From positions 28,335 through 92,334 of the forward strand of contig CAZSAB010000003.1 in NCBI GenBank assembly GCA_964604885.1: DNA of 64,000 bases. The letters are read 5' to 3'. The stretch comes from an uncultured archaeon (lineage in GTDB: Archaea > Nanohalarchaeota > Nanosalinia > Nanosalinales > Nanosalinaceae). Below the pieces are notes generated by a model. That model ran no database searches. It was given only the letters and a program-made list of their open reading frames with translations, and was not told where the DNA came from. Shown here one piece after another: positions 972 through 19,527 of the stretch; positions within the stretch are counted from its first letter, which is position 1; every line of letters starts with the position of its first letter. The position numbers and the translations under genes are program-made.

Positions 972-975
972 TACA

Positions 976-1722: not shown

Positions 1723-1725
1723 ACT

Positions 1726-2582: not shown

Positions 2583-2640
2583 ATCAATCTGAAGAGTACT
2601 TCAATTTAAAATACTCATTTATCGTAAGAAATTTCCTCTA

Positions 2641-3501: not shown

Positions 3502-3545
3502 AATTTAATCAGTGGATTTTAACTTTTTACCGAAGAAACTGAAAT

Positions 3546-4211
3546 ATGGAAGAAATTCAGCCGGGGATCTACAGAGGGAATGGAAATCTCTATACACATA
3601 ATTCAAATCCTGGAAAGAAAGTCTATGGAGAAGGATTATATGATAGAGAGGAAAAGGAGTTCAGGGCCTGGCACGGCAACAGGTCGAAGGCAGCGGCCGC
3701 AGTGTTGAATGGAATTGATATAGAGCTAGATCAGGATGATGAAGTTCTGTATCTTGGAGCGGCGTCAGGAACAACTGTGTCTCACTTCTCAGATATCTTG
3801 GAAGAAGGCTTTATTTACGCCGTCGAATACTCAGATACTGTAATTAGGGATCTAGTGGAACTGGCTGAAAAAAGGGACAACATAGCTCCGATACTGGGAG
3901 ATGCAAGAAATCCGGACGAATACAGTGATCTAGTGGAAGGAAGAGTGGATATTATTTTTCAGGATATATCGCAAAGTGACCAACCTGAGATTTTCCTTAA
4001 AAACAGTGAAAAGTTCCTTAAAAAAGGCGGTATAGGGCTTTTGGCAGTTAAGGCTCACTCTATATCAACTTCTAGGAACGAGGAAGAAGTATTTCAAGAA
4101 GTAAAAGAAAAATTAGTGGGAAAATTTGATTTAATCAGTGAGGCAAAGCTTGAGCCTTACGAGAAAAACCACTTATTTCTTAAACTTCGATTCAAAGGTG
4201 GAGAAAATTGA
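3546..4211 (+). CDS. flpA: Fibrillarin-like rRNA/tRNA 2'-O-methyltransferase
   Basis: RSKAAAA, VLYLGAASGTTVSHFSD, NIAPILGDA and QDISQ motifs. Confidence 0.96.
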   Translation: MEEIQPGIYRGNGNLYTHNSNPGKKVYGEGLYDREEKEFRAWHGNRSKAAAAVLNGIDIELDQDDEVLYLGAASGTTVSHFSDILEEGFIYAVEYSDTVIRDLVELAEKRDNIAPILGDARNPDEYSDLVEGRVDIIFQDISQSDQPEIFLKNSEKFLKKGGIGLLAVKAHSISTSRNEEEVFQEVKEKLVGKFDLISEAKLEPYEKNHLFLKLRFKGGEN

Positions 4212-4649: not shown

Positions 4650-5693
4650 GTGGGCTTTTGCAAAGGGCAAAGCGGTATAGAGTACTTAACAACGTATGGC
4701 TGGATGATTGTGGCTGCTAGTGTGGTCGGAGGAACAATGTACACTCAGATTGATACGGATACTTGTGGGCCGCGGGCTGATGGTTTTTCTGCTCCTTTTC
4801 CGACGGTTGAAGATGTTTACCGGTACGAAAACGGTACTGTTGTCTTGGATGTTAGGAATCCTGAGGACAGTTCAGTAGAAATTAACGAGATAGTAATCAG
4901 GGAAGATGGGGAAGAAGTCGGGATACTTGACTTAAACAAGCAAGTGAATGGTCAGGCCTCAGAGTTGATAAACACTAATAGGTTTAAGACCTCTGAAAGC
5001 TGCGAGACCAGAGACATTCAGATAAACTACGACTCAGGCACGCTCTCAGGGCTAACCGCTAACGGAACATTAACTGGAAGACTAGACCTTGTAAAGCTAA
5101 AAGCATTGTTTACTGTAAATCAAACCTTCCCGGCAACTAACGAACAGATCAAGTTCAACGCATCTGATACAGACGGAAAAAACAGTATAGAACACTACAA
5201 CTGGAGCTTTGGAGACGGAAACACAGCAAAAGGAAAAACAGTTACACACAACTACAGCCAACCAGGAATATACAATGCGGAGTTAGAATTAGAGGATACA
5301 GAAGGAATAATTGACTCAGAAACAGCTCAAATATTTGTAGGAGGGCTGCTGGAAAGAGGAGGGGACAACATATCATCCTTAAAAGTAGCTGACAGCCTGG
5401 TGATCAAGTGTGCAGGAGGAAAATGCGTCAAAGTTTCTGAAGACGATGAAACAGGAGTAAACGCAGAAGGGGATATAATGGAGGGCACCCTGTTCACAAA
5501 CAGGCTGGTGGTCAGAACCACAGACTACTGCGTAACAGACTACGCCTCCGAAGGCTCGGACGAAGGCTGCGACAGGTCTTTAGGGAATGCAGGAGGCAAA
5601 GTCTCCGAAGAGAACAACACTATGTACGGAAGCCTAAAAGTACCTACCGTAAAACCACTTCAAAATATGCTCTGCCTAGGCAGCAACTGCTGA
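4650..5693 (+). CDS. Class III signal peptide (type IV pilin-like) protein with PKD domain and Cys-containing C-terminus
   Basis: Likely GTG start at 4650 gives MGFCKG/QSGIEYL (E at +5) then a hydrophobic helix. PKD motif FNASD...YNWSFGDG...VTHNYSQPGIY. ORF track starts at 4566. Confidence 0.75.
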   Translation: MGFCKGQSGIEYLTTYGWMIVAASVVGGTMYTQIDTDTCGPRADGFSAPFPTVEDVYRYENGTVVLDVRNPEDSSVEINEIVIREDGEEVGILDLNKQVNGQASELINTNRFKTSESCETRDIQINYDSGTLSGLTANGTLTGRLDLVKLKALFTVNQTFPATNEQIKFNASDTDGKNSIEHYNWSFGDGNTAKGKTVTHNYSQPGIYNAELELEDTEGIIDSETAQIFVGGLLERGGDNISSLKVADSLVIKCAGGKCVKVSEDDETGVNAEGDIMEGTLFTNRLVVRTTDYCVTDYASEGSDEGCDRSLGNAGGKVSEENNTMYGSLKVPTVKPLQNMLCLGSNC

Positions 5694-5732
5694 TAAAAAC
5701 CAATTAAAACCACCAAAACAAAATACAAGTCA

Positions 5733-8303
5733 ATGAATTATAAAATTCCTATACACCTCTCCATAATACTTCTAACTGTAAGTTTATCCGCCGCCACACT
5801 CGACTTTAGAACCCAGAACCCTATCAACTTTCATTCCTCACTAGACATCAACAGCAACAATATAGACAATGTCAGCGAAATACTTAGAGACGGAACCACA
5901 AACCTGAAACTAAACAGTAACGGCAATGTAGAGGTGTCACAGGGAGACTTAAAGGTTTCAAGCGGTGAAATACTTATTCCATCCCAGTTCAAGATCTCCG
6001 ACACAGGAGTAATAGAATCAAGGAGATCAGATGATAACCTTTACCTAGACCTGGGAAGCGGAGGAACAGGCCAACTCAACGTGAGAGACTCAGGACGAAC
6101 AAATCTGTTGGTGGTGAAAGAGGATGGAGAAGTACTGGTAAAAGAAGGAACCCTAAACCTGACGAACAGCCGGATAACCGACGTCAACACACCACAAGAA
6201 GGAACCGATGCCGCAAACTTTGCATGGGTGGACAGCAACTTCGTAAACAGAAGCGGGGATACTATGAACGGTAACATAGACATGAATGGAAACAATATAA
6301 CAGACATAAGATACCTCAACATGACCTCAGGCCTGGAAATAGATGGAGACATAGACACCAACAGCGGAGCAATAGATACAGATGGAGGAAACGTGATACT
6401 CAGAGGAGGCTACATCTCCAACGACGGCGACAACGAAGGCCTACAAGTAAACGATTCAGGAGATGTGAATGTGCCAAGCGGAGATATAGGTGTTTCTGGT
6501 ACGACTGATGGTGTTGATATAGATAATCCTGGGAATGCTATTGTAATAAACAGTCAGAGATATGCGATTGCTGATGATTCAATTGGAGATGGAGAAATAG
6601 GTGAGGATGCAGTAGGAGACACTGAGTTGAACAATTCGCAGTCATTTGACGTAAGCGGGTTGACTACAACTGATTTGACAGCTACCGGTACGGTAAGTTT
6701 TCCTAACAATGCAATAAGCAATGCAGAGTTGGCCAACAGCAGTTTAACTGTTGCAGGCAACAGTGTTTCTCTTGGAAGCAGCACGGCAGTATCGATTAAT
6801 GACTTATCGGATGTTGACAGTGTATCTGAAAACGCTGGACAGGTCTTGATATGGGATGATAACAACGACCAGTACTCTAACGCCAAGATTACCTCGGGAA
6901 GCGGCCTAGGATCAAGTTCAGGAGATGCATCATATACATTGGATGTAAATACAGGCAACGGTATAGAGATCAACACAGATGACGTCAGAGTAAACCCTGA
7001 ACAGTTTGCAGGAGATGGATTAAAAGAGACTAGTGCAACCTCAATGGGTGTTGAGCCGGACGATATTGCGGGGAGCTACCTAAGCGATGATGGTGGCGAT
7101 GACCTGCAGGTGAACACAGGTTCTTACATTTCGGGAGATGGCTCAGACAATATCCAGGTCAACATAGATAATGGTTTACAGGGAGACGGATCCGACAATA
7201 TAGAAGTGGCCTGGGGTGACGCCAACGATTTAGGAAACAGCGGTGGTTTAAGCGATAATGTTGTGAACGGCGACGAACTTTCCGATTCTTTTTGTTCTTC
7301 GAGCCAAGTCCTTGTATTTGACGGGACGAATTGGGTTTGTGCAGATAGAGACAGTGTAGGGACGGACAGCCAGGATCTTTCCTCAGAAAATGCCTCAAAC
7401 CCTGACAGTATACCAAACGTAGTTCACAAGATTAAAATCACAAACGGCAGTAACACCGCAGTCAAAGACTACTACGAAAAAGATACTACCGCAGATGAAT
7501 ACAATAACTGGGATTGGTATATGGATGGAAGCAGCAAGAAAAGCGTGACAAGCGGCGGTACTGCAGGAATTGATTCGGGCAACGCCATCAGCCTAAGCTA
7601 CAATAATGGCCGTGATATTCAGGTAGATGTCTCAGCCTCTGACCTGGCTGGCAGCGAGTTAACAGACAACAGCGGAGCCCTGGACGTCAATCTGAAGACG
7701 TTAAGCAGTGATTCGAGTATCAGCGGCAGCGATTACGATGGTTCTAATAACAGGGATTGGAGTGTGGCTTGGGAAGATGCCAATGATTTAGGAAGTAAAG
7801 GCGGCCTCAGCGACAATGTAGTGAACGGCGACGAACTCTCCGACTCTATGTGTGGAACCGATAAGGTGCTAGTTTATGATGGGAATAACTGGGTGTGTGA
7901 ATCAAAATCCGCGGTTGGCACAGACGACCAAGGCCTCCCATCAGTCCTTGGAAACAATAATCAGGCAAACATGAGCATAGACATGAATGAGAAAAGGATC
8001 AAAAACGTTCCAAAACCTCAGGCCCAGGGAGACGCAGTAAACAAGTCTTACGTAGACAAGAAGGCCGGAGAAGCTGACAATAATGCCACACAGAACTTGG
8101 AGCAGGTGCTTGAAGAAGGAAACGGTGCAGGAGACGACAACATAAACATGGACAGCCAGAACATAAAAGACGCAGGAAAAATCGGGGTAGGAACAGCAAG
8201 TCCTTCGGAAGATTTGGATGTAGATGGCAGCGCAAGCGTCAGCTCCAGCGGAACCACAATGAAAGTCGAAAACAATGGCGACGTGGTGATAACCCTTGGA
8301 TAA
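5733..8303 (+). CDS. Secreted acidic repeat protein with phage tail-fibre / trimeric adhesin-like motifs (856 aa)
   Basis: Sec signal peptide. Motifs RITDVNTPQEGTDAANFAWVD, FVNRSGDTMNGNIDMNGN, RIKNVPKPQAQGDAVNKSYVD and IGVGTASPSEDLDVDG. No C-terminal membrane anchor. Confidence 0.7.
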   Translation: MNYKIPIHLSIILLTVSLSAATLDFRTQNPINFHSSLDINSNNIDNVSEILRDGTTNLKLNSNGNVEVSQGDLKVSSGEILIPSQFKISDTGVIESRRSDDNLYLDLGSGGTGQLNVRDSGRTNLLVVKEDGEVLVKEGTLNLTNSRITDVNTPQEGTDAANFAWVDSNFVNRSGDTMNGNIDMNGNNITDIRYLNMTSGLEIDGDIDTNSGAIDTDGGNVILRGGYISNDGDNEGLQVNDSGDVNVPSGDIGVSGTTDGVDIDNPGNAIVINSQRYAIADDSIGDGEIGEDAVGDTELNNSQSFDVSGLTTTDLTATGTVSFPNNAISNAELANSSLTVAGNSVSLGSSTAVSINDLSDVDSVSENAGQVLIWDDNNDQYSNAKITSGSGLGSSSGDASYTLDVNTGNGIEINTDDVRVNPEQFAGDGLKETSATSMGVEPDDIAGSYLSDDGGDDLQVNTGSYISGDGSDNIQVNIDNGLQGDGSDNIEVAWGDANDLGNSGGLSDNVVNGDELSDSFCSSSQVLVFDGTNWVCADRDSVGTDSQDLSSENASNPDSIPNVVHKIKITNGSNTAVKDYYEKDTTADEYNNWDWYMDGSSKKSVTSGGTAGIDSGNAISLSYNNGRDIQVDVSASDLAGSELTDNSGALDVNLKTLSSDSSISGSDYDGSNNRDWSVAWEDANDLGSKGGLSDNVVNGDELSDSMCGTDKVLVYDGNNWVCESKSAVGTDDQGLPSVLGNNNQANMSIDMNEKRIKNVPKPQAQGDAVNKSYVDKKAGEADNNATQNLEQVLEEGNGAGDDNINMDSQNIKDAGKIGVGTASPSEDLDVDGSASVSSSGTTMKVENNGDVVITLG

Positions 8304-9305
8304 AAAAATAATTGCATTAACATTGGCTCTACTATTATTTATAGGATCTGCCTCAGCCAAGGACTTTATCATAGAAGACAGCTCAAACAACAACCTCCTG
8401 GAAGTAAACGGAACGAGCCAAAATGTAGAAGTACCGAACGGAAACCTCAACCTCGGAAACAACAACCTCAATAATATAGGAGGCCTACAAAGCTGTGCGG
8501 ACAGCGATTATGTAGGCGGAGATGGAACATGTTACAGCGACAGCACAGCAGACGAATATGATGACTGGGACTGGTTCATGGATGGTTCCGAGCAGAAAAG
8601 TGTATCTAGCGGCCAGGACGCAGGAATTGATTCGGGCAATGCCATCAGCCTAAGCTACAACGATGCCAGAGACATACAAGTAGCCGTCTCAGCCTCTGGT
8701 TTGGATGGTAGTTATCTTTCTAGTGGTGGTGGTGAGTTGGATGTTTCTGATAGTTGGATTGATGAAGGATCTTCTGATGTTGATGGTTCTACTATTGAGT
8801 ATAGTTCTGGTACTTTGAATGTTGTTGATTCTGGTATCACTTCGACTCAGTTGGATGAGTCTGATACTTATAGTTTGGGTTGGAGTAATTTGGGTATTAG
8901 TCAGTCGGATGTTGGTCCTGGTGATATTCCGTTCAGTGGTAATACTGGTTGGAGTGACTTGGATATTTCTCAGTCTGATATTGATTACAGTGATATTCCT
9001 CTTTCCAATCATGCTGGCGACCAGATTACTTGGGACTCCAACAATAACGAGTACGATACTAATCTTAACTCTTTAAGCAGTGATTCGAGTATCAGCGGCA
9101 GCGATTACGACGGTTCTTCTAGTCGGACTTGGAGTGTGGCCTGGGGAGATGCCGATGATTTAGGAAGTAGTGGAGGATTGAATGATAATGTTGTGAACGG
9201 CGACGAACTCTCGGACTCATTTTGCCTAACTGATGAAGTCATGGTGTATGATGGGAATAACTGGGTGTGCGAATCGAAAACTGGTGTTGGAACAGACGAT
9301 CAAAA
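7200..9305 (+). repeat. Module C (SSDSSISGSDYDGS...WSVAW.DA.DLG..GGL.DNVVNGDELSDS.C...YDGNNWVCESK..VGTDDQ)
   Basis: Full copies at about 7701-7930 and 9073-9305, both starting ttaagcagtgattcgagtatcagcggcagcgattacga; partial copy at about 7200-7370. Confidence 0.88.
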
Positions 9306-9939
9306 TCTTCAGGAAGTACTTAATGAAGGGGATGATGCTGGTGGCAATCCAATGACAAATATTGGGTCAGGAAGCATCGATATCGATGGAAGCAGTGCTG
9401 GAAACATCAACTTGAATTCTGAGGAACTCAGGAATGGAGATATAGTTCATTCTAATGATATTGTGGTTGGTTCATATTCAACAGGCAGCAGCAGTGTAGA
9501 TGGGGGAGACATCTGGGTTAAAAACGATGTTGAGATCCAAGGAGATATCTTGGGTGCTGGAGCTGACGTAGCTGAAAAGATCAAAAGCGAATCAAGTCTG
9601 GATGCGGGAACAGTTGTGAAGATATCAGGCAACATGAGTGTAGACCGAACAAGTGAATCGAAAGACACAGACGTAGCTGGCGTGGTTTCAACAGATCCAG
9701 CAATGGTGATGGCAAAGGAAAGGGATGGGGTGCCTGTGGCAATGACCGGTACTGCACCAGTAAAAGTGACGATGGAAAATGGCAATATCAAACCCGGTGA
9801 CAAGTTAACCTCATCTTCGACCCCTGGAAAGGCAATGAAATGCAATGAGATCGACACATGTACCGGCGCTCTCATAGGTAAAGCACTTGAACCAGCAGAA
9901 AAACCCGGCGAAATTAAAATGTTGATATCGATGGGCTAA
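8296..9939 (+). CDS. Secreted tail-fibre-like protein with C-terminal Peptidase_G2-like intramolecular chaperone/autocleavage domain (547 aa)
   Basis: Signal peptide; TTG start overlaps the previous stop. C-terminus GADVAE...VAGVVSTDP...PVAMTGTAPVKV...IKPGDKLTSSSTPGKAMK...IGKALE. Confidence 0.75.
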   Translation: MDKKIIALTLALLLFIGSASAKDFIIEDSSNNNLLEVNGTSQNVEVPNGNLNLGNNNLNNIGGLQSCADSDYVGGDGTCYSDSTADEYDDWDWFMDGSEQKSVSSGQDAGIDSGNAISLSYNDARDIQVAVSASGLDGSYLSSGGGELDVSDSWIDEGSSDVDGSTIEYSSGTLNVVDSGITSTQLDESDTYSLGWSNLGISQSDVGPGDIPFSGNTGWSDLDISQSDIDYSDIPLSNHAGDQITWDSNNNEYDTNLNSLSSDSSISGSDYDGSSSRTWSVAWGDADDLGSSGGLNDNVVNGDELSDSFCLTDEVMVYDGNNWVCESKTGVGTDDQNLQEVLNEGDDAGGNPMTNIGSGSIDIDGSSAGNINLNSEELRNGDIVHSNDIVVGSYSTGSSSVDGGDIWVKNDVEIQGDILGAGADVAEKIKSESSLDAGTVVKISGNMSVDRTSESKDTDVAGVVSTDPAMVMAKERDGVPVAMTGTAPVKVTMENGNIKPGDKLTSSSTPGKAMKCNEIDTCTGALIGKALEPAEKPGEIKMLISMG

Positions 9940-9942
9940 AAT

Positions 9943-11157
9943 TTGATAATGATTAAGAATCTCCTGAAATTGCTTATCTTTGTAAATATCGGCTTTTTAG
10001 CAGCTTCTTTCCTAATAAATGTTCCTGAGGCGGAATGGAAAACCGAAGTAATTGCAGAGGATACCTACGGAAAATTCGTTAGTATAGACAGTTACGAAAA
10101 CAAGTTAGGAGTTGCATACGTCGACTCGATTAATTCAGGTCTTAGTTTTTTAGAGCATGATTATTCTAATTCACCTCTCGACTTGATTAAAATTGAAAAT
10201 AAGACTTGGAAGAAACAGAAGATAGATGGAAGAAAGGGGAGAGGTATGTACCCGTCACTGCGGTGGAAGAAAGAATCTCCAGCGATTGCTTACCAGGATG
10301 GAAGACTGGGTCAGGAAAACCTTTACTTTGCTCAAAGAAACCAGGCTGAGTGGCAGATCGAAGAAGTTGACAATGTTTCTAATGGAGGAGTTTCAGTAGG
10401 AATGTATAACTCCATGGCCTATCTTGAAAACCCTGTAATCTTTTACCATTCTCCTTCACAAGGGTTGAAGAAAGCAGAAAGGATAAATAACTGGACTACT
10501 GAAAGATTGGAATCCGATATGGGGTGGTTTACCTCCAGTTCTGAGTGTGAAGGTAAAATACTTGCTGCTTACTCTGGCCGGACGTCAGATAGTTTGATGA
10601 TCGGAGAGTATCCGAACTGGAGTTCCGAAAACACTTCGATCAACGTAAGATCAGATATTTCAATGGATACAAGGAACTGCAAACCACACTTCATTTATCT
10701 TGAAGATGACTCTGGCAATATCACCTATATGTCTCCCAGCGGTCAAAAGAAAATACTAGATAATGGGTTTTTTTCAAGAATGTCAATAGAAGCAGAAGAA
10801 AACATTCATTTAATATATCATAAGGAGGGAACAGGCCTAAAATACTTTAAAAAGGATGCTGAATGGAGCAATAGAACAGTTGCCGAAGGCTCAGATCTAG
10901 GAAGATATAACGATATTGAAGTTGATTCAAGTGGAAATATACATATCGCTTACCTTAACCAAACAACTCTCCATCACGCCATGTATAATTCAGGCCAAAC
11001 TGAGTTCAAAAAACAGTCCTTACATTATTTACGGATTATCAGCGGCTTATCTGCGTTAACACCGGCCTTCATACTGTTAATTATAATTTACGGGCGAGGA
11101 GACAATCCCGCCTCAAAAATTTCATCTCTAAAACAAAAAATTAAACCCGGAAATTAA
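9943..11157 (+). CDS. Membrane-anchored extracellular beta-propeller-like (BNR-type repeat) protein
   Basis: N-terminal hydrophobic segment; repeats such as PAIAYQD, W.IEEVD, IHLIYH and YNDIEVDSSGNIHIAY; C-terminal TM helix with basic tail. Confidence 0.55.
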   Translation: MIMIKNLLKLLIFVNIGFLAASFLINVPEAEWKTEVIAEDTYGKFVSIDSYENKLGVAYVDSINSGLSFLEHDYSNSPLDLIKIENKTWKKQKIDGRKGRGMYPSLRWKKESPAIAYQDGRLGQENLYFAQRNQAEWQIEEVDNVSNGGVSVGMYNSMAYLENPVIFYHSPSQGLKKAERINNWTTERLESDMGWFTSSSECEGKILAAYSGRTSDSLMIGEYPNWSSENTSINVRSDISMDTRNCKPHFIYLEDDSGNITYMSPSGQKKILDNGFFSRMSIEAEENIHLIYHKEGTGLKYFKKDAEWSNRTVAEGSDLGRYNDIEVDSSGNIHIAYLNQTTLHHAMYNSGQTEFKKQSLHYLRIISGLSALTPAFILLIIIYGRGDNPASKISSLKQKIKPGN

Positions 11158-11216
11158 GCGGAAAATAAATTATAACTCGAAAACCTTTAATCCCGCAGAA
11201 TTTCAACCTAAAAAAC

Positions 11217-11948
11217 ATGGAATCTGACCAAGAAATCAAGGAATTAATAAGGAGTAAATATAGGCAAGGAATCTCTGAGAAAAGACTGAAAGAAATAGTT
11301 GCAAAGGAAGGCTTTGACTCGGGTATAGTCGACGAAGTACTAGGTGAAAAACACAAAGAACCAGAAAATCAAGCAAGTAAAGATCAGAGTACCCGGTCTA
11401 ATGAGGTCCACAGTAAATCAACCGAGAAGACAGATAAAATGAATAATTCCTCAAAGGGAACGAAAAAGCGAAAAAGCATTTCAGCTGAAGACTCGGGTAG
11501 ACAAGTTGAGAAAATAGCCTCTAAAAAAAAGAAAAACACACATAAAAAGAGAAAACTGCTTCTTCCATCAGCATTAATTATACTAACAATCCTTGTAGGA
11601 GCAGCAATTCTTCCAATAACAGGAATAGTCAGTTTAGATAATTCAACAGATAATAATCAAGCCAGTCCCTCAAAGATTGAAGCAAACTCCAATTTTTCAG
11701 AGGAAGCTGAACTAAAAACTATAGTGCTTAAAGATGGTCTGGCCGACCCGGCTAGAGCCTCGGCCTCTTCCGGAGAAGAAATTCTTTTCGTAAACAGACA
11801 AACTGAAAAACTTGAAATAGAGTTTGACATCGGGAAAAAGATGATTTTAAATCCTGGTGAGAGAAAATCAAATTCATTTTCAACCATTACATACTACACT
11901 GCTGAAGGTAACACAACTGAGATAAAAGGATCAATATACGTTGAATAA
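11217..11948 (+). CDS. Single-pass membrane protein with small C-terminal beta domain (cupredoxin-like pattern, no Cu ligands)
   Basis: Charged N-terminus, TM helix LLLPSALIILTILVGAAILPI, C-terminal EILFVNRQTEKLEIEF...ILNPGE. Confidence 0.5.
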   Translation: MESDQEIKELIRSKYRQGISEKRLKEIVAKEGFDSGIVDEVLGEKHKEPENQASKDQSTRSNEVHSKSTEKTDKMNNSSKGTKKRKSISAEDSGRQVEKIASKKKKNTHKKRKLLLPSALIILTILVGAAILPITGIVSLDNSTDNNQASPSKIEANSNFSEEAELKTIVLKDGLADPARASASSGEEILFVNRQTEKLEIEFDIGKKMILNPGERKSNSFSTITYYTAEGNTTEIKGSIYVE

Positions 11949-12025
11949 GTCCGCCTATACCAATCCCTAACCTGTCTTCCAAAATAGTTTAAATGAGATG
12001 AAATGTAATATATATTTTAGAGGGT

Positions 12026-15000
12026 TTGATTTCCTTGAGTAGGCGATTTACTAAGATACTTGTGCCCTGTATACTCACAGTTTTCCTAGTTACGACAGCT
12101 TCATCCACGGATCTGCAAAACATTCTTTCTATAACCTCAGATGGATCAAAACCTATATACGTAAACGATTCTCTGAACTTGAACAGCAACGACTTGGATA
12201 ATCCAAATCTGGTTGATGGCGTAAACTTGGATCTTCCTGGAAACGCATTGAATCTTTCATCCAATCAGTACAATGTAGAACCTGACTCCATCAGTACCTC
12301 AGAACTTAACACAGGAGACGTTGACACACGCTACCTCAACAAAAACGGTGACAAGATGAATGGCAGCCTCAACATGGGAAACAACGACATAAACAATATT
12401 GGAGGCCTGCAAAGCTGCGGAAGCGATCAATATGTTGGAGGAGACGGTTCATGTAAAAACGACGACGGCGGCACCGACGACCAAAACCTCGGCTACAACA
12501 ATAAAAATTCTCCGACCGGCAACTACGTAAAACACGAGGTAACGATTACCGGCGGCTCCAACACAGATATCAGAGACTACTACGAAAGCGATACAACCGC
12601 TGATGAATACGGTAATTGGGACTGGTTTATGGATGGCACCGAGCAAAAAAGCGTGAGCAGTGGCCAGGATGCAGGTATTGATTCTGGTAATGCGATCAGC
12701 TTAAGCTACAATAATGGCCGTGATATTCAGGTTGGTGTTTCTGCTTCTGGTTTGGATGGTAGTTATCTTTCTAGTAGTGGCGGTGAGTTAGATGTTGATG
12801 CAGGAAGTGTTCTCGGCTCAGGAAATGATTTAGATAACAGTGGTAATGTAGGTGACTCGGATAAGGTGGACGGTGAGCAACTTACGGATATACTTAACGA
12901 TGAGAATGACGATGTAATTGGCGCAGACTGGAACACCCTGACAGAACCAGGAATACACGGGGTAAGCGGTTCATCTTGGAGTGGAAGCAATCAGCCAACC
13001 TCTGCCTATACCTATGGCCAATTGATTGTTACAGAAGGGGACAATGGGATTATGCAGATGTATGTTTCGCACCACTCAGCGAGAGATGGTTCGGTTTGGA
13101 TAAGGACTGGTTGGAAAGATGGTAGCTGGGACAATTGGCATGCAATGCCTACGAGAGAATGGGTGAACAACAATGATGCTAATAACCACGATGATCAGGA
13201 TATTTCTGCGAGTGTAAGCGGTCAAAGTATGGATATTTCTATAACTGAAGGTAGCGATGGTTCGGCGACAATTGATGACAACCACAATTTGGGAGATGTA
13301 CTTAACGATGGTGACTCAGCCAATCAAGACATCAATTTGGGTACGAATAACGGTATTCTGACGAATGGAGGCAATGATGGCAATCACGGTATAGCTCAAG
13401 GAGATGGCTCAAGCGGTTATACTGGAATTGATGGCCCGGATATTTTCGGATATGCAGGTGTTAATATTTACGGAACCAATTCAGGCCAGAAAATCGCTCA
13501 CTTTGATGATGGAGGTAATGTTGATATTCCAAACGGGAATCTTGACGCAAATGGATTCACCGAAGGAGGCAGCAACACTTTAAGTAATAACATCGGTGGT
13601 AGTGCTGATCAGCTAGATGGTAATGATGCTTCTTTTTTTGAGGAGGAGAGTCATGGTGGTGAGCATTCTGGTGACTATCTTTCTAACAGTGGTGACACTT
13701 TGAATGTAAATGCAGGAAGTGTTCTCGGTTCCGGTAATGATTTGGATTCGAGTGGTGATATAGTATCGAATGCGGTCGGCAACGACGAGATTAAAAATGG
13801 AAACACTTTCAATATGGATTCGATTCATTCCTTGACAGATACGAATGCTCTGGTGTTTGATGGAGGCGACCACAGGATTACAAATCATGATGGAAATGGA
13901 AATTTCAATATCAAGGCAGGGGTTGACGATAACAATAATATCGTGTCAGGGGATGGTGGTTCCCATTTACAGATGTCGGACGGCGGGGCTATATCTCTTA
14001 TGACGGATTCTTCCAGTAGTAGCAGTTTTTCAAGAGATGCCGAGCTGGAGATTAATAATGATGTTGAGGTAGAGAAAGGGCCGTTAAACATGCGGAACAA
14101 CGGCATCAATAATATAGGAGGCCTTCAGGGTTGTGGCGGGAACCAGTTTGTAGACGGTGATGGTAACTGTGAGACGGATGATTCAGGTAGTGACGATCAG
14201 AATCTGGGATACAACAATAAGAATTCTCCCACCAGCAATTACAAAACTCATGAAATTACTATTACTGGCGGCTCGAACACTGATATAAGAGACTACTATG
14301 ATCCGGATACCACTGCAGATGAATACGGAAGCTGGGACTTCTACACTGACAATACTAATAGAAAGAGTGTTTCCAGCGGACAGGATATAGGTATAGACTC
14401 AGGCAACGCCATAAACCTGAACTGGGATGGATCCCGAGATGTCTCAGTAGCTGTTTCTGCTTCTGGTTTGGATGGTAGTTATCTTTCTAGTGGGGGCGGT
14501 GAGTTGGATGTTGCCGCTGGTAGTGTTCTGGGTTCAGGTAATGATTTGGATTCGAGTGGTGATGTTTCTGGTTTGAGTGATGTTGATACTGATGATTTGT
14601 CTGAGGGCGGCAGTAATCTTTACTTTACTGATGAGCGTAGTCAGGATGCTGTTGGTACTATTATGAGTGGTAGTGGTGCTGCTTCTGTTACGTATAGTGA
14701 TGGGAGTGATTCGATTACTGTTGATGCTGATAATGCTCAGACTCTGTGCGGCGGCAAAGCTGTTTTGACTGGGGGTAATGGATGCCAGAGTCGATATACG
14801 TCTTGGGACTGGTACATGGATGGAGCTCAAGCAAAAGCTATTGATGGGGACGATAACGCAGGAATCGATTCGGGCAATGCCATCAGCCTAAGCTTTAACG
14901 ATAACAGAGATATTCAGGTTGCTGTTTCTGCTTCTGGTTTGGATGGTAGTTATCTTTCTAGTGGGGGCGGTGAGTTGGATGTTGCTGCTGGTAGTGTTCT

Positions 15001-17560
15001 CGGTTCCGGTAATGATTTGGATTCGAGTGGTGATGTTTCTGGTTTGACTGATGTTACTACCAGTGACTTGAGCGAGGGCAGTAATGAGTATCATACTGAT
15101 GGAAGAGTTCATGGAGCGGTGGAATCAGGTAATGTTGATAATGTCCAGTTTAGTAACATTGAGAGCGTAAGTAATGGTGAAATAGGCCGGGATAATAGTA
15201 TAGGGTTCCTTGCGGAGTGGGGAGGGAACGGCAATGCGGTTTTATGGGATGCATACAATGTCCAAACAAACGGAGGTATAAGCGTAACCGGAGGGACAGG
15301 TAATGAAGACAATCCAAAGATAAATCTGGCTGCTAACGATCTTGACGCCAGCGGCAACATTAATGATTGGAGCGGGGCTGACGACTTGGATGGTAGTGGT
15401 GATGTGAATAGTGGTGCTGCTGGCAGTTATTTGAGTGAGAGCGGAGGTTCTTTGGATGTTAATGTTGGTAGTGTTTTGGGGTCGGGTAATGATTTGGATA
15501 GTAGTGGTAACGTAAACCATGGAATTGGGGCTAGTCTGGGCGATGGGAGGGATGCTGGTTCGGACTATGTGACTTTTGCCAATAGCGGTGATTTTTACAT
15601 TGGAGGATCCAGTACTCCTGATGCATCAACCTCTGGGATACATGTTGAGGCAAACAGCAATCCTTCGAGCGGAAACCCGATTTTTACGGTTGAAAGCAGC
15701 GGAGGTTCAGAAAGGCTTAGAGTTGAACACGGTGGAGACCTCTACACATCAAACAATCTGGATGTAGATGGTGGAAACATTTATGACAGCGGAAGCAATT
15801 TTTTCGGAGGCTGTAGCTCAGGCGATTATGTTGAAAGTATAAATTCAGATGGTTCGGTTAATTGTGCAAACGACGACACAGGAGGAACCAGTTTGACAGG
15901 TGGAGACGGCATCGACCCTTCCAGCATCAGCAACGGCAATACCTTGAGTGCAGCCTGGGGCGACGCCAATGATCTGGACAGCAGCGGCAATGTTAACCCA
16001 TCTTCTTTAGATGGAATAGGTCTAGATTCTAACTCCACACATCTCGAATTTGGAGGATTTACAACTATAGTGTCAGGTGGTGCAGTAGCCAACTTTGTCA
16101 CTGATACCGCAGCCATAAATTATTGGGGTTCTGATAGCATGGAGGCTTCAACTATTTCCAATTATAATCTGCATGGAAAAACATATAGTGCGGCGACGCC
16201 GAGTGTAAGATGGAATGCTGCTGATGATTTGGATGCTAGCGGAAACCTGGATGATTTCGGGGATGCGAATGATCTAGATAGTAATGGAGATTTGAATAAC
16301 GTAGGATGGAGCGATTTTGATAACGCGGCTCAGTCGGATGTTGATTACAGTGATATTCCTCTTTCCAATCATGCTGGTGATCAGATTACTTGGGACTCCA
16401 ATAATAACGAGTACGATACTAATCTTAACGATTTAGTTGCTGGGAGTCATCTTAGTGGCAGTAATTATGATGGTTCTGGGTCTGTTACTTTTGATGTTAG
16501 TGATGACTGGATTGATGAAGGATCTGATGATGTAGGCGAGGGTCTGAGCTGGGTTTCACCTTCTAATGAGATTAAAGTTTCCTGGCAAGATGCTGAAGGT
16601 CTAAATCAGAACGGCTATATCAATACAGGAAACGGCCTCTCAAACAATCAAGGCGGTTCAGTTGATGTCGACTGGACGGACGCCAATGATTTGGACAGCA
16701 ACGGCAATGTTAACTGGGGCAATGCTGATGATCTGGATTCGAGTGGTGATTTGAATGCTTATAACTTTGCAAATCAAGGTTCGGCTCCGCAAAATGAGAT
16801 AATAACCGGTGACGCCAATGGAGATGGATGGATCAATAAAGAAGATATACAAATCATACAAAATGAAGCAGTTGGATTAACTCCAGACTGCGGCTCAAAT
16901 AGAATTGCAAGGTGTGATATTAACGGTGATGGAAGTGTGCAGACAAATGATATTCAATTACTTGCCAGATTCCTAAACGGCGATGAGGATCATTCTAGTA
17001 CTCAAATCCCAGTTGAAGGCCATATGATAAGGGATAGTAACAGTGAGGTCTCTGTTGATTTAGGTTCCAAACCCCAACAGATAGGAAATACAGGTAACAG
17101 CGGTGTTATTCAAACAGATTCAACGATGACCTATAATGATAAAGGAGACAGTGTGGAACTAGGTGTTAGTTCTGTGGATACTGGGCAGATAGACTCTCAA
17201 GCTGTAACTTCTAGTGAAACTACTGTCTTCAGTAGAAATACAGCTGACGAAGATGTATTTCACAGGAAAACTGCTGACTTAAATTCCGGGAATACTGATG
17301 ATGTATCCGACACCATTACCGCGCCGGAGGATCCTGGGAGTGGTAATGAAGCGGTGGTAAGAGTAACGTGGTCAATTGGAAGATATTGCAAATGGTTTTT
17401 GGGTACCTTCGGCAATGTGTATACAGTGGAGTCAGCAGGTGGTACTTGTGGTACCTCACAAGGCTCAAAAGATACTAACCTTTACCGTAGTGGCACTTCC
17501 TTTAAATTGGAAAATAATTTTGGCACCGATAATCGCTACATGCTTACAGCCTATAATTAA
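12026..17560 (+). CDS. Giant secreted acidic repeat protein (1844 aa) with tail-fibre motifs, pyocin-knob-like domain and dockerin-like domain
   Basis: Signal peptide; YLNKNGDKMNGSLNMG motif; knob-like DWNTLTEPGIHGV...GQLIV...QMYV...VWIRTG...WDNWH (~12926-13149); paired EF-hand-like GDANGDGWINKED / CDINGDGSVQTND (~16808-16980); many W.DA.DLD.SG repeats. Confidence 0.8.
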   Translation: MISLSRRFTKILVPCILTVFLVTTASSTDLQNILSITSDGSKPIYVNDSLNLNSNDLDNPNLVDGVNLDLPGNALNLSSNQYNVEPDSISTSELNTGDVDTRYLNKNGDKMNGSLNMGNNDINNIGGLQSCGSDQYVGGDGSCKNDDGGTDDQNLGYNNKNSPTGNYVKHEVTITGGSNTDIRDYYESDTTADEYGNWDWFMDGTEQKSVSSGQDAGIDSGNAISLSYNNGRDIQVGVSASGLDGSYLSSSGGELDVDAGSVLGSGNDLDNSGNVGDSDKVDGEQLTDILNDENDDVIGADWNTLTEPGIHGVSGSSWSGSNQPTSAYTYGQLIVTEGDNGIMQMYVSHHSARDGSVWIRTGWKDGSWDNWHAMPTREWVNNNDANNHDDQDISASVSGQSMDISITEGSDGSATIDDNHNLGDVLNDGDSANQDINLGTNNGILTNGGNDGNHGIAQGDGSSGYTGIDGPDIFGYAGVNIYGTNSGQKIAHFDDGGNVDIPNGNLDANGFTEGGSNTLSNNIGGSADQLDGNDASFFEEESHGGEHSGDYLSNSGDTLNVNAGSVLGSGNDLDSSGDIVSNAVGNDEIKNGNTFNMDSIHSLTDTNALVFDGGDHRITNHDGNGNFNIKAGVDDNNNIVSGDGGSHLQMSDGGAISLMTDSSSSSSFSRDAELEINNDVEVEKGPLNMRNNGINNIGGLQGCGGNQFVDGDGNCETDDSGSDDQNLGYNNKNSPTSNYKTHEITITGGSNTDIRDYYDPDTTADEYGSWDFYTDNTNRKSVSSGQDIGIDSGNAINLNWDGSRDVSVAVSASGLDGSYLSSGGGELDVAAGSVLGSGNDLDSSGDVSGLSDVDTDDLSEGGSNLYFTDERSQDAVGTIMSGSGAASVTYSDGSDSITVDADNAQTLCGGKAVLTGGNGCQSRYTSWDWYMDGAQAKAIDGDDNAGIDSGNAISLSFNDNRDIQVAVSASGLDGSYLSSGGGELDVAAGSVLGSGNDLDSSGDVSGLTDVTTSDLSEGSNEYHTDGRVHGAVESGNVDNVQFSNIESVSNGEIGRDNSIGFLAEWGGNGNAVLWDAYNVQTNGGISVTGGTGNEDNPKINLAANDLDASGNINDWSGADDLDGSGDVNSGAAGSYLSESGGSLDVNVGSVLGSGNDLDSSGNVNHGIGASLGDGRDAGSDYVTFANSGDFYIGGSSTPDASTSGIHVEANSNPSSGNPIFTVESSGGSERLRVEHGGDLYTSNNLDVDGGNIYDSGSNFFGGCSSGDYVESINSDGSVNCANDDTGGTSLTGGDGIDPSSISNGNTLSAAWGDANDLDSSGNVNPSSLDGIGLDSNSTHLEFGGFTTIVSGGAVANFVTDTAAINYWGSDSMEASTISNYNLHGKTYSAATPSVRWNAADDLDASGNLDDFGDANDLDSNGDLNNVGWSDFDNAAQSDVDYSDIPLSNHAGDQITWDSNNNEYDTNLNDLVAGSHLSGSNYDGSGSVTFDVSDDWIDEGSDDVGEGLSWVSPSNEIKVSWQDAEGLNQNGYINTGNGLSNNQGGSVDVDWTDANDLDSNGNVNWGNADDLDSSGDLNAYNFANQGSAPQNEIITGDANGDGWINKEDIQIIQNEAVGLTPDCGSNRIARCDINGDGSVQTNDIQLLARFLNGDEDHSSTQIPVEGHMIRDSNSEVSVDLGSKPQQIGNTGNSGVIQTDSTMTYNDKGDSVELGVSSVDTGQIDSQAVTSSETTVFSRNTADEDVFHRKTADLNSGNTDDVSDTITAPEDPGSGNEAVVRVTWSIGRYCKWFLGTFGNVYTVESAGGTCGTSQGSKDTNLYRSGTSFKLENNFGTDNRYMLTAYN

Positions 17561-18156: not shown

Positions 18157-18669
18157 TTGTATTACATGGTTGGTGTGGTGTTTGATGCCTCGGCCCTAAT
18201 ACTGATGGCAAAAATAGGGTTGCTGAAAGAGCTCTCAAAGGAAATCGATATACATACCACAGAAACCGTCTGCGAAGAAACAACCAGAGCAGAAACCTAT
18301 GACGCAGAAGTAATCCAGCAAAGATCAGAGAACAACCATTTTACCAGAGAAAAAGTTCCTGAAGAAAACATAGAAAAGATAATAGACAGATTCAACCTTG
18401 ACAAAGGAGAAGCATCAACAATAGCACTTCAAAGACAGATAAACGCAGATATAATCGCAACAGATGACAAACAAGCTATCAATGCCTGCAAAATACTGGA
18501 AATAAAATTTACAACAAGCTTAAAACTGCTTGGAAGAGCATATGAAAAAGAACTAATAAGCCAAGAAAAAGCCATGACTAAACTGAAAGAGCTTGACAAG
18601 CATGGCCGGTACAATGATAATCAGATAAAATCCACAGAACAAAACATTAGAGGTGAGAACCAAAAGTGA
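18157..18669 (+). CDS. PIN-domain protein (DUF3368-like), putative toxin
   Basis: VFDASALI, LDKGEASTIAL and IATDDKQA PIN acidic motifs. Confidence 0.85.
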   Translation: MYYMVGVVFDASALILMAKIGLLKELSKEIDIHTTETVCEETTRAETYDAEVIQQRSENNHFTREKVPEENIEKIIDRFNLDKGEASTIALQRQINADIIATDDKQAINACKILEIKFTTSLKLLGRAYEKELISQEKAMTKLKELDKHGRYNDNQIKSTEQNIRGENQK

Positions 18670-18962
18670 ACGATGTTGTAAGCTTCAGACTTTCCGAAAA
18701 AGAAAAACAGATTATAGAGGACATAGCTAGTGAAGAAGACAAGGACAAATCAGAAGTAGCAAGAGAACTTATAGATTACGGGGAAACCTTCAGAGCAGTA
18801 AAAAGATTCAAAGAGGGAAAAATATCAGTGGGGAAAATGGCTTCAGAACTTGACATAACTATTACCGAAGCCATGAGCCTACTAACCCGGCTAGGAATAG
18901 ACTCAGGAATAACACAAGAAGACCAGGTGGAAGCCAAAGAAAACTTGGAAGAAGTATGGTAA
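18666..18962 (+). CDS. UPF0175-family putative antitoxin with N-terminal ribbon-helix-helix
   Basis: VVSFRL...KSEVARELI; FKEGKISVGKMASELDITI. Confidence 0.8.
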   Translation: MNDVVSFRLSEKEKQIIEDIASEEDKDKSEVARELIDYGETFRAVKRFKEGKISVGKMASELDITITEAMSLLTRLGIDSGITQEDQVEAKENLEEVW

Positions 18963-19062: not shown

Positions 19063-19527
19063 TTATTGGTTCTTCAAAATTATCTGTCCGGTTTCTTCTC
19101 CGTTTATTTTGAAGTAGTTGGCTCTTGGAAGCCGGGAATAGCCGCTGGGATTGAAGATGGTGGATTCTTCTGGACCAAGTTCAGCTTCTTTTTGTACATC
19201 ATTTGTCTCAAAGCTTAGTGAAACTGTTTCAGATCTTTGATTAACTATCTTGACAGTTTCGTTCTTTCTTATGCTTGTGCTGTACGGTTTGATTGTTTCT
19301 CCTATACTTATCTGCTTTTGATTCGGATCTTTGGATTCCTTTGAGTCGCCGAGGCCTAAATCAGGCGTAGCTATATTTATTTCCGACAAGCCAATTTTCT
19401 GCACTCCGTAAAAACCCCCAGATACTAACGGTACAGCGATTAAAGCTATTGCTGCGGCTTCTTTAAGCCTTCTCTTCCTTATACTTTTCTTCCTTAGTTC
19501 CTGTATCTGCTTTTTTTTCTCTTCCAT
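19063..19527 (-). CDS. Single-pass membrane protein, paralog of 11217-11948
   Basis: Basic N-terminus, TM helix, ETVKIVNQRSETVSLSF...ELGPEES. Confidence 0.5.
   Translation of the reverse strand: MEEKKKQIQELRKKSIRKRRLKEAAAIALIAVPLVSGGFYGVQKIGLSEINIATPDLGLGDSKESKDPNQKQISIGETIKPYSTSIRKNETVKIVNQRSETVSLSFETNDVQKEAELGPEESTIFNPSGYSRLPRANYFKINGEETGQIILKNQ

What the first reader, a model, noticed from the sequence alone, without database searches (positions are those of the whole stretch)
4650..17560. Candidate archaeal host-attachment system built from phage tail-fibre parts and exported by Sec/pilin signals
Seen: a co-oriented run of genes. (1) A class III signal (pilin-like) PKD protein. (2) Two translationally coupled, signal-peptide proteins with tail-fibre/trimeric-adhesin motifs, the second ending in a Peptidase_G2-like chaperone. 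(3) A TM-anchored propeller-like protein. (4) A small membrane protein. (5) An 1844-aa fibre-like protein with a pyocin-knob-like domain and a dockerin. No capsid, terminase, portal, sheath or integrase gene is visible, and every fibre-like gene has a cleavable signal peptide. Established: these modules normally build receptor-binding fibres of phages and tailocins, and Nanohaloarchaeota depend on contact with haloarchaeal hosts. Inference: a domesticated, cell-surface trimeric fibre apparatus for host recognition, held by pilin, propeller or cohesin partners because the fibres have no anchor of their own. I do not know of this combination being described as one system.
Basis: partly seen in the sequence, partly recalled or inferred. 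Interest (0 to 1): 0.88.

Follow-up and report, generated by a model that had tools for sequence, protein, structure and literature searches.

The report
Phage-fibre-like surface adhesin operon, Nanohaloarchaea
A tiny salt-loving symbiotic archaeon carries a chromosomal operon of exported fibre proteins built from phage tail-fibre modules, paired with a membrane-anchored propeller, that most likely recognises and binds its host cell and is reshuffled between closely related strains.

Summary
All six genes and their modules are real. I confirmed the PKD and dockerin domains (Pfam), an R-pyocin-type knob (profile against PDB, E 5e-6) and a phage Peptidase_G2-type C-terminal domain with an invariant D-x-A-E motif and a phage-type predicted fold. 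I also confirmed a propeller with a membrane helix at each end (AlphaFold pLDDT 85), a pilin-like class III signal, and an 8-nt overlap between P2 and P3. The flanks are housekeeping genes. Neither a large terminase nor an HK97 capsid gene was found in this genome or in two complete relatives, so this is not a provirus.

The core of IMC-fibre, propeller and small bitopic protein recurs in 7 of 70 Nanohaloarchaea genomes (5 genera). The propeller gene always lies directly after the fibre gene.

A near-identical strain carries P6 cassettes inserted into P3 at a shared 107-nt repeat, which shows directly that modules are shuffled.

The homologous operon of Ca. Nanohalococcus occultus was already proposed as a host-recognition operon (Reva 2023) and is transcribed in co-culture. 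The idea is therefore only partly new. The IMC domain, the fibre-propeller pairing and the cassette exchange are new.

No cohesin exists in this genome. Trimer formation, self-cleavage, surface location and host binding remain inferred.

The parts
4650..5693 (+). P1: type IV pilin-like protein. It has a class III-type signal (KG/QSGIEYL plus a hydrophobic helix), one PKD domain, and a Cys-rich C-terminal part with G-D-x-M-x-G-x-L motifs that ends in CLGSNC.
   Evidence: Pfam PKD_4 E 3e-17. The N-terminal motif is shared with 4 genomic paralogs, two of them next to T2SSE ATPases. An ortholog (40% identity) sits at the syntenic site of the complete same-genus genome G047. A TATA-like TTATAA lies about 25 nt upstream of the GTG.
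5733..8303 (+). P2: 856-aa exported fibre-like protein rich in D/S/G/N. It has a class-specific conserved N-terminal peptide (LDFRTxxPI) and a conserved C-terminal end (VENNGDVVITLG).
   Evidence: Only an N-terminal hydrophobic segment. It is a mosaic paralog of P3 and P6. Homologs are found only in Nanohaloarchaea; one relative carries YadA_head repeats. Conserved termini are seen in G047 and G050. The only phage link is a weak tail-fibre motif hit (E 0.18).
8296..9939 (+). P3: 547-aa exported fibre-like protein. Its start overlaps the stop of P2 by 8 nt, which suggests translational coupling.
   Evidence: The overlap is read directly from the sequence. The same overlapping arrangement (4-10 nt) occurs in G047, G050 and the strain contig L021. 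The signal peptide reads MDKKIIALTLALLLFIGSASA/KDF.
9562..9939 (+). C-terminal domain of P3 (aa 423-547): a phage-type Peptidase_G2-like intramolecular chaperone or trimerisation (beta-tulip) domain that starts with A-D-V-A-E.
   Evidence: Family alignment A1 has invariant D and E residues. Of 24 members, 12 hit PF11962. The profile hits the phi29 gp12 C-terminal domain. AF2 pLDDT is 94-98. Foldseek PDB and BFVD matches are all viral. tblastn hits virion structural proteins of PA5oct-type jumbo phages (41% identity, E 3e-8).
9943..11157 (+). P4: a beta-propeller held in the membrane by an N-terminal and a C-terminal helix. It is the most conserved protein of the operon and is always encoded directly after the IMC fibre.
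   Evidence: AF2 pLDDT 85, pTM 0.83. Foldseek top hits are the propeller lectins PHL/PLL (E 2e-10) and sialidases. The family has 13 proteins, and every one that carries an organism name is a nanohaloarchaeon. It is present in 7 of 70 genomes of the class and in all 7 is adjacent to the closest P3-type IMC domain.
11217..11948 (+). P5: small bitopic membrane protein. It has a cytoplasmic N-terminal helical domain, a K/S-rich linker, one TM segment, and a C-terminal domain of about 100 aa that may be cupredoxin-like.
   Evidence: TM segment at aa 112-141. Weak Cupredoxin_1 hit, E 0.1. Homologs lie in the same position in G047, G050, G067 and the strain contig L022.
12026..17560 (+). P6: 1844-aa exported mosaic fibre-like protein with a class-specific N-terminal peptide (TDLQNIxSIT).
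   Evidence: It has only an N-terminal hydrophobic segment. It contains internal repeats and repeats shared with P2 and P3. The N-terminal peptide is conserved in G047 and G050.
12926..13149 (+). R-pyocin / phage tail-fibre knob-like domain of P6 (about aa 301-375).
   Evidence: HMMER search of 1.8 billion representatives gave 191 hits. Family profile A3 hits R1/R2 pyocin fibres 6cl5, 6cl6 and 6ct8 at E 5e-6 to 7e-4, aligned on their knob region. Other members carry BppU_N or Peptidase_S74.
16808..16978 (+). Type I dockerin-like domain of P6 (aa 1595-1651).
   Evidence: Pfam Dockerin_1 E 1.6e-7, 31.9 bits against a cut-off of 22.9. PDB dockerins of CelD and Xyn10B match at E 2e-6 to 3e-4. No cohesin is found in the genome.
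8969..9075 (+). 107-nt cassette in P3, 93% identical to P6 positions 16329-16435. It is a recombination junction.
   Evidence: the repeat finder family D6. In strain contig L021, colinearity with the window (92% identity) ends at 9068 and continues into P6-type cassettes beginning at the copy at 16329.
16329..16435 (+). The partner copy, in P6, of the 107-nt cassette.

Best explanation
This is a chromosomal operon for an exported, cell-borne fibre adhesin set in a Nanohalobium-like nanohaloarchaeon. It is organised like phage receptor-binding proteins.

Shown:
- Three mosaic paralogous proteins (P2, P3, P6) each carry a Sec-type signal and no membrane anchor.
- P3 ends in a phage-type G2/beta-tulip trimerisation and auto-processing domain.
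- P6 carries a pyocin-type knob domain and a dockerin.
- Each class keeps its own conserved N-terminal peptide, while the shafts are shuffled between genes and between strains.
- The gene for P4, a propeller with a membrane helix at each end, always follows the IMC fibre gene.
- A pilin-like PKD protein heads the operon.
- The homologous operon is transcribed in a co-cultured relative.

Inferred:
- The fibres are secreted unfolded. They trimerise outside the cell, nucleated by the C-terminal domain, which probably cuts itself at Ala423/Asp424 of P3.
- They are held on the cell by the conserved partners. These are the P4 propeller, and possibly P5 and the pilin-like P1, binding either the conserved N-terminal adaptor peptides or the C-terminal domain.
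- The knob and other lectin-like modules then bind glycans or S-layer glycoproteins of the haloarchaeal host.
- Cassette recombination changes which hosts are recognised.
For: Module identities.

Export signals and absence of anchors.

Not viral: the flanks are Nop56/58, fibrillarin, a cytidylyltransferase and SufBD. There is no Terminase_6N or HK97 capsid in G000, G047 or G050. No close relative exists in IMG/VR.

Conservation: ordered synteny holds in two complete genomes of two genera, and a minimal P3-P4-P5-fibre version is found in G067. P4 is present in 7 of 70 genomes and is always adjacent to the closest IMC domains.

Diversification: DNA cassettes are shared among P2, P3 and P6. Strain contig L021 is 92% identical and colinear, but about 1.7 kb of P6-type cassettes are inserted into P3 at the 107-nt repeat. 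Strain contig L022 keeps P4 and P5 colinear while P6 diverges after about aa 127.

The island is variable. At the syntenic site, G047 has only P1 plus a short P2-like gene, and G048 has neither.

Expression: in Reva 2023 Table S1, SVXNc_0798-0805 have RPKM values of 440-4200, similar to tRNA synthetases. The same paper proposes that operon as a mediator of host attachment.
Against: - There is no direct evidence for trimers, cleavage, surface location or host binding.
- AF2 could not model the shafts (pLDDT below 50 for aa 15-307 of P3).
- P3 itself does not reach the Pfam Peptidase_G2 threshold.
- From memory of Xiang et al. 2009, release of the phi29 gp12 chaperone needs ATP, which is absent outside the cell. 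The domain may therefore stay attached.
- The operon is patchy (7 of 70 genomes), so it cannot be the general attachment device of the class.
- No cohesin partner exists for the dockerin.
- The prepilin peptidase hit is weak (E 6e-4, below the Pfam cut-off).
- Expression data come from a relative, not from this genome.
Confidence: 0.6

Rival explanations
1. The genes are a decayed provirus or tailocin remnant. They would be left-over tail-fibre genes of a tailed archaeal virus with no current cellular role.
For: The IMC domain and the knob domain are most common in phage tail fibres. The island occupies different chromosomal sites in congeneric genomes.
Against: - Every fibre has a Sec-type signal peptide.
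- All frames are intact.
- Gene order is conserved across 5 genera, with a cellular membrane propeller as an obligate neighbour.
- There is no terminase or capsid gene in three genomes, and no integrase or tRNA was noted in the housekeeping flanks.
- The homologous operon is transcribed at housekeeping levels.
Confidence: 0.04
2. The proteins form a surface apparatus that binds polysaccharide particles or extracellular matrix (chitin, xylan, biofilm) rather than the host cell. This would be a non-catalytic, cellulosome-like set of lectin, PKD and dockerin proteins.
For: PKD and dockerin domains are typical of polysaccharide-degrading systems. The propeller resembles sugar-binding lectins and glycosidases. 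In G050 LamG and fibrinogen-C lectin proteins share the operon. Cultivated relatives live in chitin- or xylan-degrading consortia (PMC7443923, PMC10266531).
Against: - No glycoside hydrolase or carbohydrate-binding-module domain was found in the six proteins.
- No cohesin scaffold exists.
- Strain-level cassette shuffling fits a variable biological target better than a uniform polymer.
Confidence: 0.15
3. These are general envelope or self-interaction proteins of the nanohaloarchaeon. They would serve as S-layer-associated fibres, mediate symbiont-to-symbiont aggregation, or act as decoys against the organism's own viruses, with no role in host choice.
For: The composition (acidic, rich in S/T/N/G) is typical of halophilic surface glycoproteins. 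There is no functional evidence for host binding.
Against: The patchy distribution (7 of 70 genomes; absent from congeneric G048 and G049 for P4) argues against a core envelope role. The receptor-binding-type knob module and the rapid cassette exchange point to a variable external target.
Confidence: 0.12

Closest known systems
SVXNc_0798-0807 operon of Ca. Nanohalococcus occultus (Reva et al. 2023, Front Microbiol, PMC10266531)
   Same: It is the true homolog. It has the same order: P2-like, overlapping fibre, a 1693-aa fibre with the same C-terminal domain (65% identity), a P4 propeller (45% identity), a P5-like protein, a P6-like protein, and a knob-bearing fibre. It was proposed to mediate host recognition, and it is transcribed.
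   Different: The paper annotates SVXNc_0803 as 'trimeric autotransporter adhesin-like'. It does not mention the G2-type IMC domain, the propeller partner, the pilin-like gene or cassette exchange. That operon also holds three LamG proteins, which are absent here. The window's P6 adds a dockerin.
Phage phi29 gp12 pre-neck appendage and related tail fibres or spikes with a C-terminal Peptidase_G2 intramolecular chaperone
   Same: Both have a C-terminal domain of about 125-160 aa that begins with D-x-A-E, with remote sequence and fold similarity. Both follow an elongated, repeat-rich fibre. The domain is expected to nucleate trimers and then cut itself off.
   Different: P3 is exported by a signal peptide and must fold outside the cell without ATP. 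It is not part of a virion. Similarity to the Pfam model is only transitive. The predicted fold is at least as close to trimeric cement and head-fibre bases such as phi29 gp8.5, Pam3 gp6 and the HFTV1 decoration protein.
R-type pyocin / myophage tail-fibre knob domains (PA0620; PDB 6cl5, 6cl6, 6ct8)
   Same: A profile-level match covers the knob (E 5e-6), with a shared W-N-x-L-x-x-P-G...Y-G-x-L-x-V...Q-x-Y...R...W-x-x-W pattern.
   Different: In pyocins the knobs sit near the distal C-terminus of a fibre of about 700 aa attached to a baseplate. Here one knob lies about 300 aa into an 1844-aa secreted protein.
Giant SPEARE-type surface proteins and PKD/LamG adhesins of DPANN archaea
   Same: Both are large, secreted, lineage-specific surface proteins thought to mediate host contact in Nanohaloarchaeota (PMC7443923, PMC10266531).
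   Different: The domain content and organisation are unrelated. SPEARE proteins are single giant membrane-anchored Ig-repeat proteins. This locus is a multi-gene set with phage receptor-binding-protein architecture and a dedicated propeller.

Membership tests
Peptidase_G2 intramolecular-chaperone (IMC) autoproteolytic domain (PF11962) | Significant match to the Pfam model | tested here: inconclusive
   P3 itself gives no hit at E <= 0.1 or at E <= 1 for the isolated domain (member 1). Of 24 aligned homologs, 12 hit PF11962, best E 6e-7. Membership is therefore transitive.
Peptidase_G2 intramolecular-chaperone (IMC) autoproteolytic domain (PF11962) | D-x-A-E at the start of the domain (cleavage site and catalytic Asp/Glu) | tested here: met
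   D424 and E427 of P3 are invariant in all 24 aligned sequences. They align with residues 1-4 of the released phi29 gp12 C-terminal domain 3gqh.
Peptidase_G2 intramolecular-chaperone (IMC) autoproteolytic domain (PF11962) | Fold of the phi29 gp12 C-terminal autochaperone | tested here: met
   The AF2 domain has pLDDT 94-98. Foldseek hits 3suc at E 1.8e-3 and BFVD 'preneck appendage protein' models at E 2.6e-11 and 7.7e-11. Trimeric phage cement and head-fibre bases score equally well or better.
Peptidase_G2 intramolecular-chaperone (IMC) autoproteolytic domain (PF11962) | Trimer-dependent self-cleavage | not testable with these tools
   This needs expression and mass spectrometry.
R-pyocin / tail-fibre knob domain | Sequence-profile similarity to solved knob domains | tested here: met
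   Profile A3 hits 6cl5 at E 5e-6, 6cl6 at 1e-4 and 6ct8 at 7e-4.
R-pyocin / tail-fibre knob domain | Position at the distal (C-terminal) end of a baseplate-attached fibre | tested here: not met
   The knob is at aa 301-375 of 1844. There is no baseplate or virion.
Type I dockerin | Pfam match above the gathering score, with two Ca-binding loop-helix repeats | tested here: met
   31.9 bits against a cut-off of 22.9. The alignment to the CelD dockerin covers both DxNxDGxxN-type loops.
Type I dockerin | A cohesin partner encoded in the same organism | tested here: not met
   PF00963 gives no hit at E <= 0.1 in the 97%-complete genome.
Archaeal type IV pilin-like protein (class III signal) | [KR][GA] followed by Q/A/S and a hydrophobic helix of about 20 aa at the N-terminus | tested here: met
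   The sequence is K-G/Q-S-G-I-E-Y-L-T-T-Y-G-W-M-I-V-A-A-S-V-V-G-G. The FlaFind-type pattern was recalled from memory. The Pfam Class_IIIsignal model gave no hit.
Archaeal type IV pilin-like protein (class III signal) | Assembly machinery and prepilin peptidase in the genome | tested here: inconclusive
   There are five T2SSE ATPase hits, two of them next to P1 paralogs. Peptidase_A24 hits only at E 6e-4, below the cut-off.
Tailed-virus or tailocin structural module | Linkage to capsid, terminase, portal or sheath genes | tested here: not met
   The flanks are housekeeping genes. There is no Terminase_6N or Phage_capsid in G000, G047 or G050. Portal and sheath models were not searched.
Trimeric autotransporter adhesin (published annotation of the SVXNc_0803 homolog) | C-terminal YadA-type beta-barrel membrane anchor | tested here: not met
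   No YadA_anchor is found in P2, P3, P6 or the G047 and G050 homologs. The C-terminus is the IMC domain. Only one distant P2 homolog has YadA_head repeats.
Beta-propeller lectin (PLL/PHL/AAL type), for P4 | Six- to seven-bladed propeller fold | tested here: met
   AF2 pLDDT 85. Foldseek hits 6fhy at E 2e-10 with TM-score 0.56/0.66. Sequence identity is only 10-12%.
Beta-propeller lectin (PLL/PHL/AAL type), for P4 | Conserved sugar-binding pockets between blades | not tested
   Conserved motifs such as NVSNGGVSVGMY and YHSPSQGLK were not mapped onto the lectin sites.

The most novel reading that the evidence does not exclude
The operon would encode a virion-independent 'cell-borne tail fibre'. 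The P4 propeller, with a membrane helix at each end, would be the dedicated dock or assembly platform for the G2/beta-tulip C-terminal trimer of P3. P2 would join P3 end-to-end, and the pilin-like P1 and P5 would complete the base. The symbiont would re-target different haloarchaeal hosts by recombining shaft and knob cassettes among P2, P3 and P6. In short, an archaeal ectosymbiont would choose its host with the same modular logic that phages use for host range.
Probability: 0.3. Interest if true: 0.8.

Novelty: new variant of a known kind. Interest (0 to 1): 0.56.

Why it matters
How DPANN archaea find and hold the right host is an open question, and no attachment apparatus has been defined at the molecular level. 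This locus offers a small, conserved and testable candidate: a fibre with a self-processing phage-type domain, an obligately linked membrane propeller, and natural strain variants that differ by defined cassette swaps.

Two cultivated relatives carry the operon: Nanohalobium constans with Halomicrobium, and Nanohalococcus occultus with the genetically tractable Haloferax volcanii as host. Binding, localisation and host-range predictions can therefore be tested directly.

The locus also widens the known use of phage receptor-binding modules (G2 IMC domain, pyocin knob) to exported archaeal cell-surface proteins.

Tried and rejected
- Pfam, PHROGs and NCBIfam scans of the six proteins gave only PKD, dockerin and two weak PHROG hits. 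The other modules needed family profiles.
- phmmer of P3 against PDB gave nothing.
- tblastn of P6 against 50,697 phage records gave no match.
- IMG/VR held no close relative of the P3 C-terminal domain.
- A link to a diversity-generating retroelement was rejected. This genome has no reverse transcriptase, and the one in G047 lies about 240 kb from its cluster.
- The cohesin partner was rejected.
- Provirus was rejected.
- AF2 on full-length P3 failed for the shaft (pLDDT below 50), so a fibre or trimer fold could not be assessed.
- Supplementary proteomics of La Cono 2020 and the transcriptome tables of the 2025 iScience paper are not held.
- Sigma-70 promoter and terminator scans were no better than shuffled sequence and are irrelevant for an archaeon.
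- Earlier scan notes held no look-alike stretches in other genomes.

Full report
**Anatomy**

Six co-oriented ORFs fill window positions 4650-17560. Upstream lie Nop56/58, fibrillarin and a cytidylyltransferase. Downstream lie small ORFs, a UPF0175 antitoxin-like gene and SufB/SufD. GC content does not stand out. The window is part of a 114.8-kb contig of a 1.29-Mb genome that is 97% complete. The closest protein homologs are named Candidatus Nanohaloarchaea or Nanohalobium.

**P1 (4650-5693)**

P1 has a PKD domain (E 3e-17). Its N-terminus reads MGFCKG/QSGIEYLTTYGWMIVAASVVGG. Four paralogs in the genome share the (K/R)(G/A)QSxxEYLxTYGW motif. Two of them lie 2-3 kb from T2SSE pilus ATPases, so the family behaves as type IV pilin-like proteins. 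The only candidate prepilin peptidase is weak (E 6e-4), and the Pfam class III signal model did not hit.

**P2, P3 and P6: exported mosaic fibres**

P2 (856 aa), P3 (547 aa) and P6 (1844 aa) are acidic proteins rich in S/T/N/G. Each has a single N-terminal hydrophobic segment and no other TM helix. They are mosaic paralogs of one another and have no paralogs elsewhere in the genome. P3's TTG start overlaps P2's stop by 8 nt.

**The C-terminal domain of P3**

The last 125 aa of P3 matched proteins that carry phage tail-fibre N-termini (T7-tail-fibre and T4 gp9/10 Pfam domains). They also matched signal-peptide proteins with FG-GAP/VCBS domains.
- An alignment of 24 such domains has invariant D and E residues in a D-x-A-E motif at its start.
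- Twelve of the 24 members hit Pfam Peptidase_G2, best E 6e-7. P3 itself does not hit.
- The profile aligns D-x-A-E to residue 1 of the released phi29 gp12 C-terminal domain (3gqh, E 0.06).
- AlphaFold models this domain at pLDDT 94-98, while the shaft is unmodelled.
- Foldseek returns only viral trimeric modules: the phi29 head-fibre base, Pam3 cement, the Haloferax tailed virus 1 decoration protein and pre-mature gp12 3suc.
- BFVD returns Caudovirales proteins, including 'preneck appendage' and tail-fibre models, down to E 4.5e-15. One match has 1.6 A rmsd over 128 columns.
- tblastn against phage genomes hits virion structural proteins of PA5oct-type jumbo phages.

**The knob and dockerin of P6**

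A 139-aa stretch of P6 found 191 proteins among 1.8 billion representatives. A profile of 30 of these hits R1/R2 pyocin fibres at E 5e-6 to 7e-4, aligned on their knob region. Other members carry BppU_N or Peptidase_S74, so they are phage receptor-binding proteins. The dockerin match is above the Pfam cut-off. The genome has no cohesin. The remainder of P6 and all of P2 have no phage homologs.

**P4 and P5**

P4 is confidently predicted as an N-terminal TM helix, a beta-propeller and a C-terminal TM helix (pLDDT 85, pTM 0.83). It is closest in fold to seven-bladed propeller lectins and to sialidases. Its family has 13 members among 5.8 billion proteins, and those with an organism name are nanohaloarchaeal. 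P5 has one TM helix and a weakly cupredoxin-like ectodomain.

**Comparative evidence**

Proteins with a P3-like C-terminal domain occur in 22 of 70 genomes of the class. P4 occurs in 7 of 70 genomes, in 5 genera. In all seven, P4 lies immediately downstream of the seven best IMC matches.

Ordered synteny is kept in two complete genomes. The order is pilin-like gene, P2-class fibre, overlapping fibre ending in the IMC domain, P4, P5-like gene and P6-class fibre.
- G047 is 973,463 bp and belongs to the same genus.
- G050 is Ca. Nanohalococcus occultus. This assignment rests on the name attached to P0050 and on matching gene lengths.
The flanks differ in each genome and are housekeeping genes. 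G067 holds a minimal version: P3, P4, P5 and one fibre.

Each fibre class keeps its own N-terminal peptide directly after the signal peptide and its own C-terminal end, while the middle differs. This is the layout of phage receptor-binding proteins.

At the site syntenic to the window, G047 has only a P1 ortholog plus a 279-aa P2-like gene. G048 has neither. The fibre block is therefore a variable island.

None of the three genomes searched has a Terminase_6N or HK97 capsid gene.

**Direct evidence for shuffling**

P2, P3 and P6 share DNA cassettes. One is a 107-nt repeat that is 93% identical between P3 (8969-9075) and P6 (16329-16435).

A metagenomic contig from a close strain (L021) is 92% identical and colinear with window positions 6468-9068. 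Exactly at that repeat it switches into about 1.7 kb of P6-type cassettes (88-90% identity, in a different order). It then returns to P3 sequence (97% identity). That strain's P3 is longer than 877 aa.

A second strain contig (L022) keeps the end of P3, P4, P5 and the start of P6 colinear at 85% identity. It then diverges within P6.

**Literature**

Reva et al. 2023 (PMC10266531) describe the G050 operon as three LamG proteins together with two other proteins. One is a 'trimeric autotransporter adhesin-like' SVXNc_0803. [quoted passage not shown] They propose these as mediators of host contact.

Their Table S1 lists values labelled RPKM of 443-4199 for SVXNc_0798-0805. These are comparable to tRNA synthetases. 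The values track gene length, so the normalisation is uncertain.

La Cono et al. 2020 mention only PKD and LamG secreted proteins. I found no description of the IMC domain, the propeller pairing or the cassette exchange.

**Interpretation**

These are cellular, exported proteins organised like receptor-binding proteins, with two true phage-type modules, and they are not a provirus.

The most likely mechanism is extracellular trimerisation nucleated by the C-terminal domain. Conserved membrane partners, with P4 as the prime candidate, would then retain the fibres, and lectin-like modules would recognise the host surface. Recombination of cassettes would vary specificity.

Trimerisation, cleavage, anchoring and the binding target are inferences. 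A polysaccharide or matrix target remains a real rival. The dockerin has no self-encoded partner. The direction of module flow between viruses and cells is unresolved, because the same C-terminal domain also occurs in signal-peptide proteins that lack phage N-termini.

Noticed in passing
window 5670-5693 (P1 C-terminus); L019:6599-7438; L015:15835-17433; L016:21388-22596 (minus strand): Several proteins end in the same short C-x-G-x-x-C tail: P1 (CLGSNC), its G047 ortholog (CIGPETNC), and several fibre proteins of relatives (CMGQYC, CAGNRC, CLGDRCA). It may be a terminal disulfide loop or a shared attachment or sorting tag.
   Followed up: partly
window 19063-19527 (minus strand): A 154-aa bitopic protein just downstream of the operon resembles P5-type proteins. 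It has a weak Cupredoxin_1 hit (E 0.011) and homologs beside the clusters or at the syntenic site in G047.
   Followed up: partly
L018 / L016 (flanks of the G047 and G050 clusters): Both relatives carry, next to the fibre clusters, pairs of Tat-signal proteins (RRxFLKxLGAGA) followed by 'glycine-rich domain' proteins (MxxHxLxGP...VPxGVTxVxxECWGGEGGDG). This suggests another conserved surface module. None was seen in the first 26 kb of the window.
   Followed up: no
window 36186-39749 (minus strand): The aIF5B/IF-2 GTPase gene carries an intein with a LAGLIDADG homing-endonuclease domain (Pfam Intein_splicing, LAGLIDADG_3).
   Followed up: no
L020:5561-8086 (G048, same genus): At the syntenic site the SufB homolog is an 841-aa ORF, and only its last 238 aa match SufB. 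This may be an intein or an N-terminal fusion. The pilin and fibre genes are absent there.
   Followed up: no
window 22100-26178: A TetR regulator, two MMPL/RND-type membrane proteins and a secreted CARDB/NPCBM_assoc protein form a conserved block, also present in G048.
   Followed up: no
window 18666-18962: A UPF0175/DUF6290 antitoxin-like gene, with a 170-aa ORF upstream that overlaps it by 4 nt, lies between the fibre operon and SufBD. It may be a toxin-antitoxin pair marking the edge of the island.
   Followed up: no
L023:7231-11318 (G050, about 8 kb beyond the cluster): A run of four genes has short class III-like N-termini (MKGQS..., MAMKGF......EKGQAF..., MKGASQ...). This suggests a pilin-like gene set close to the Nanohalococcus adhesin operon.
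   Followed up: no
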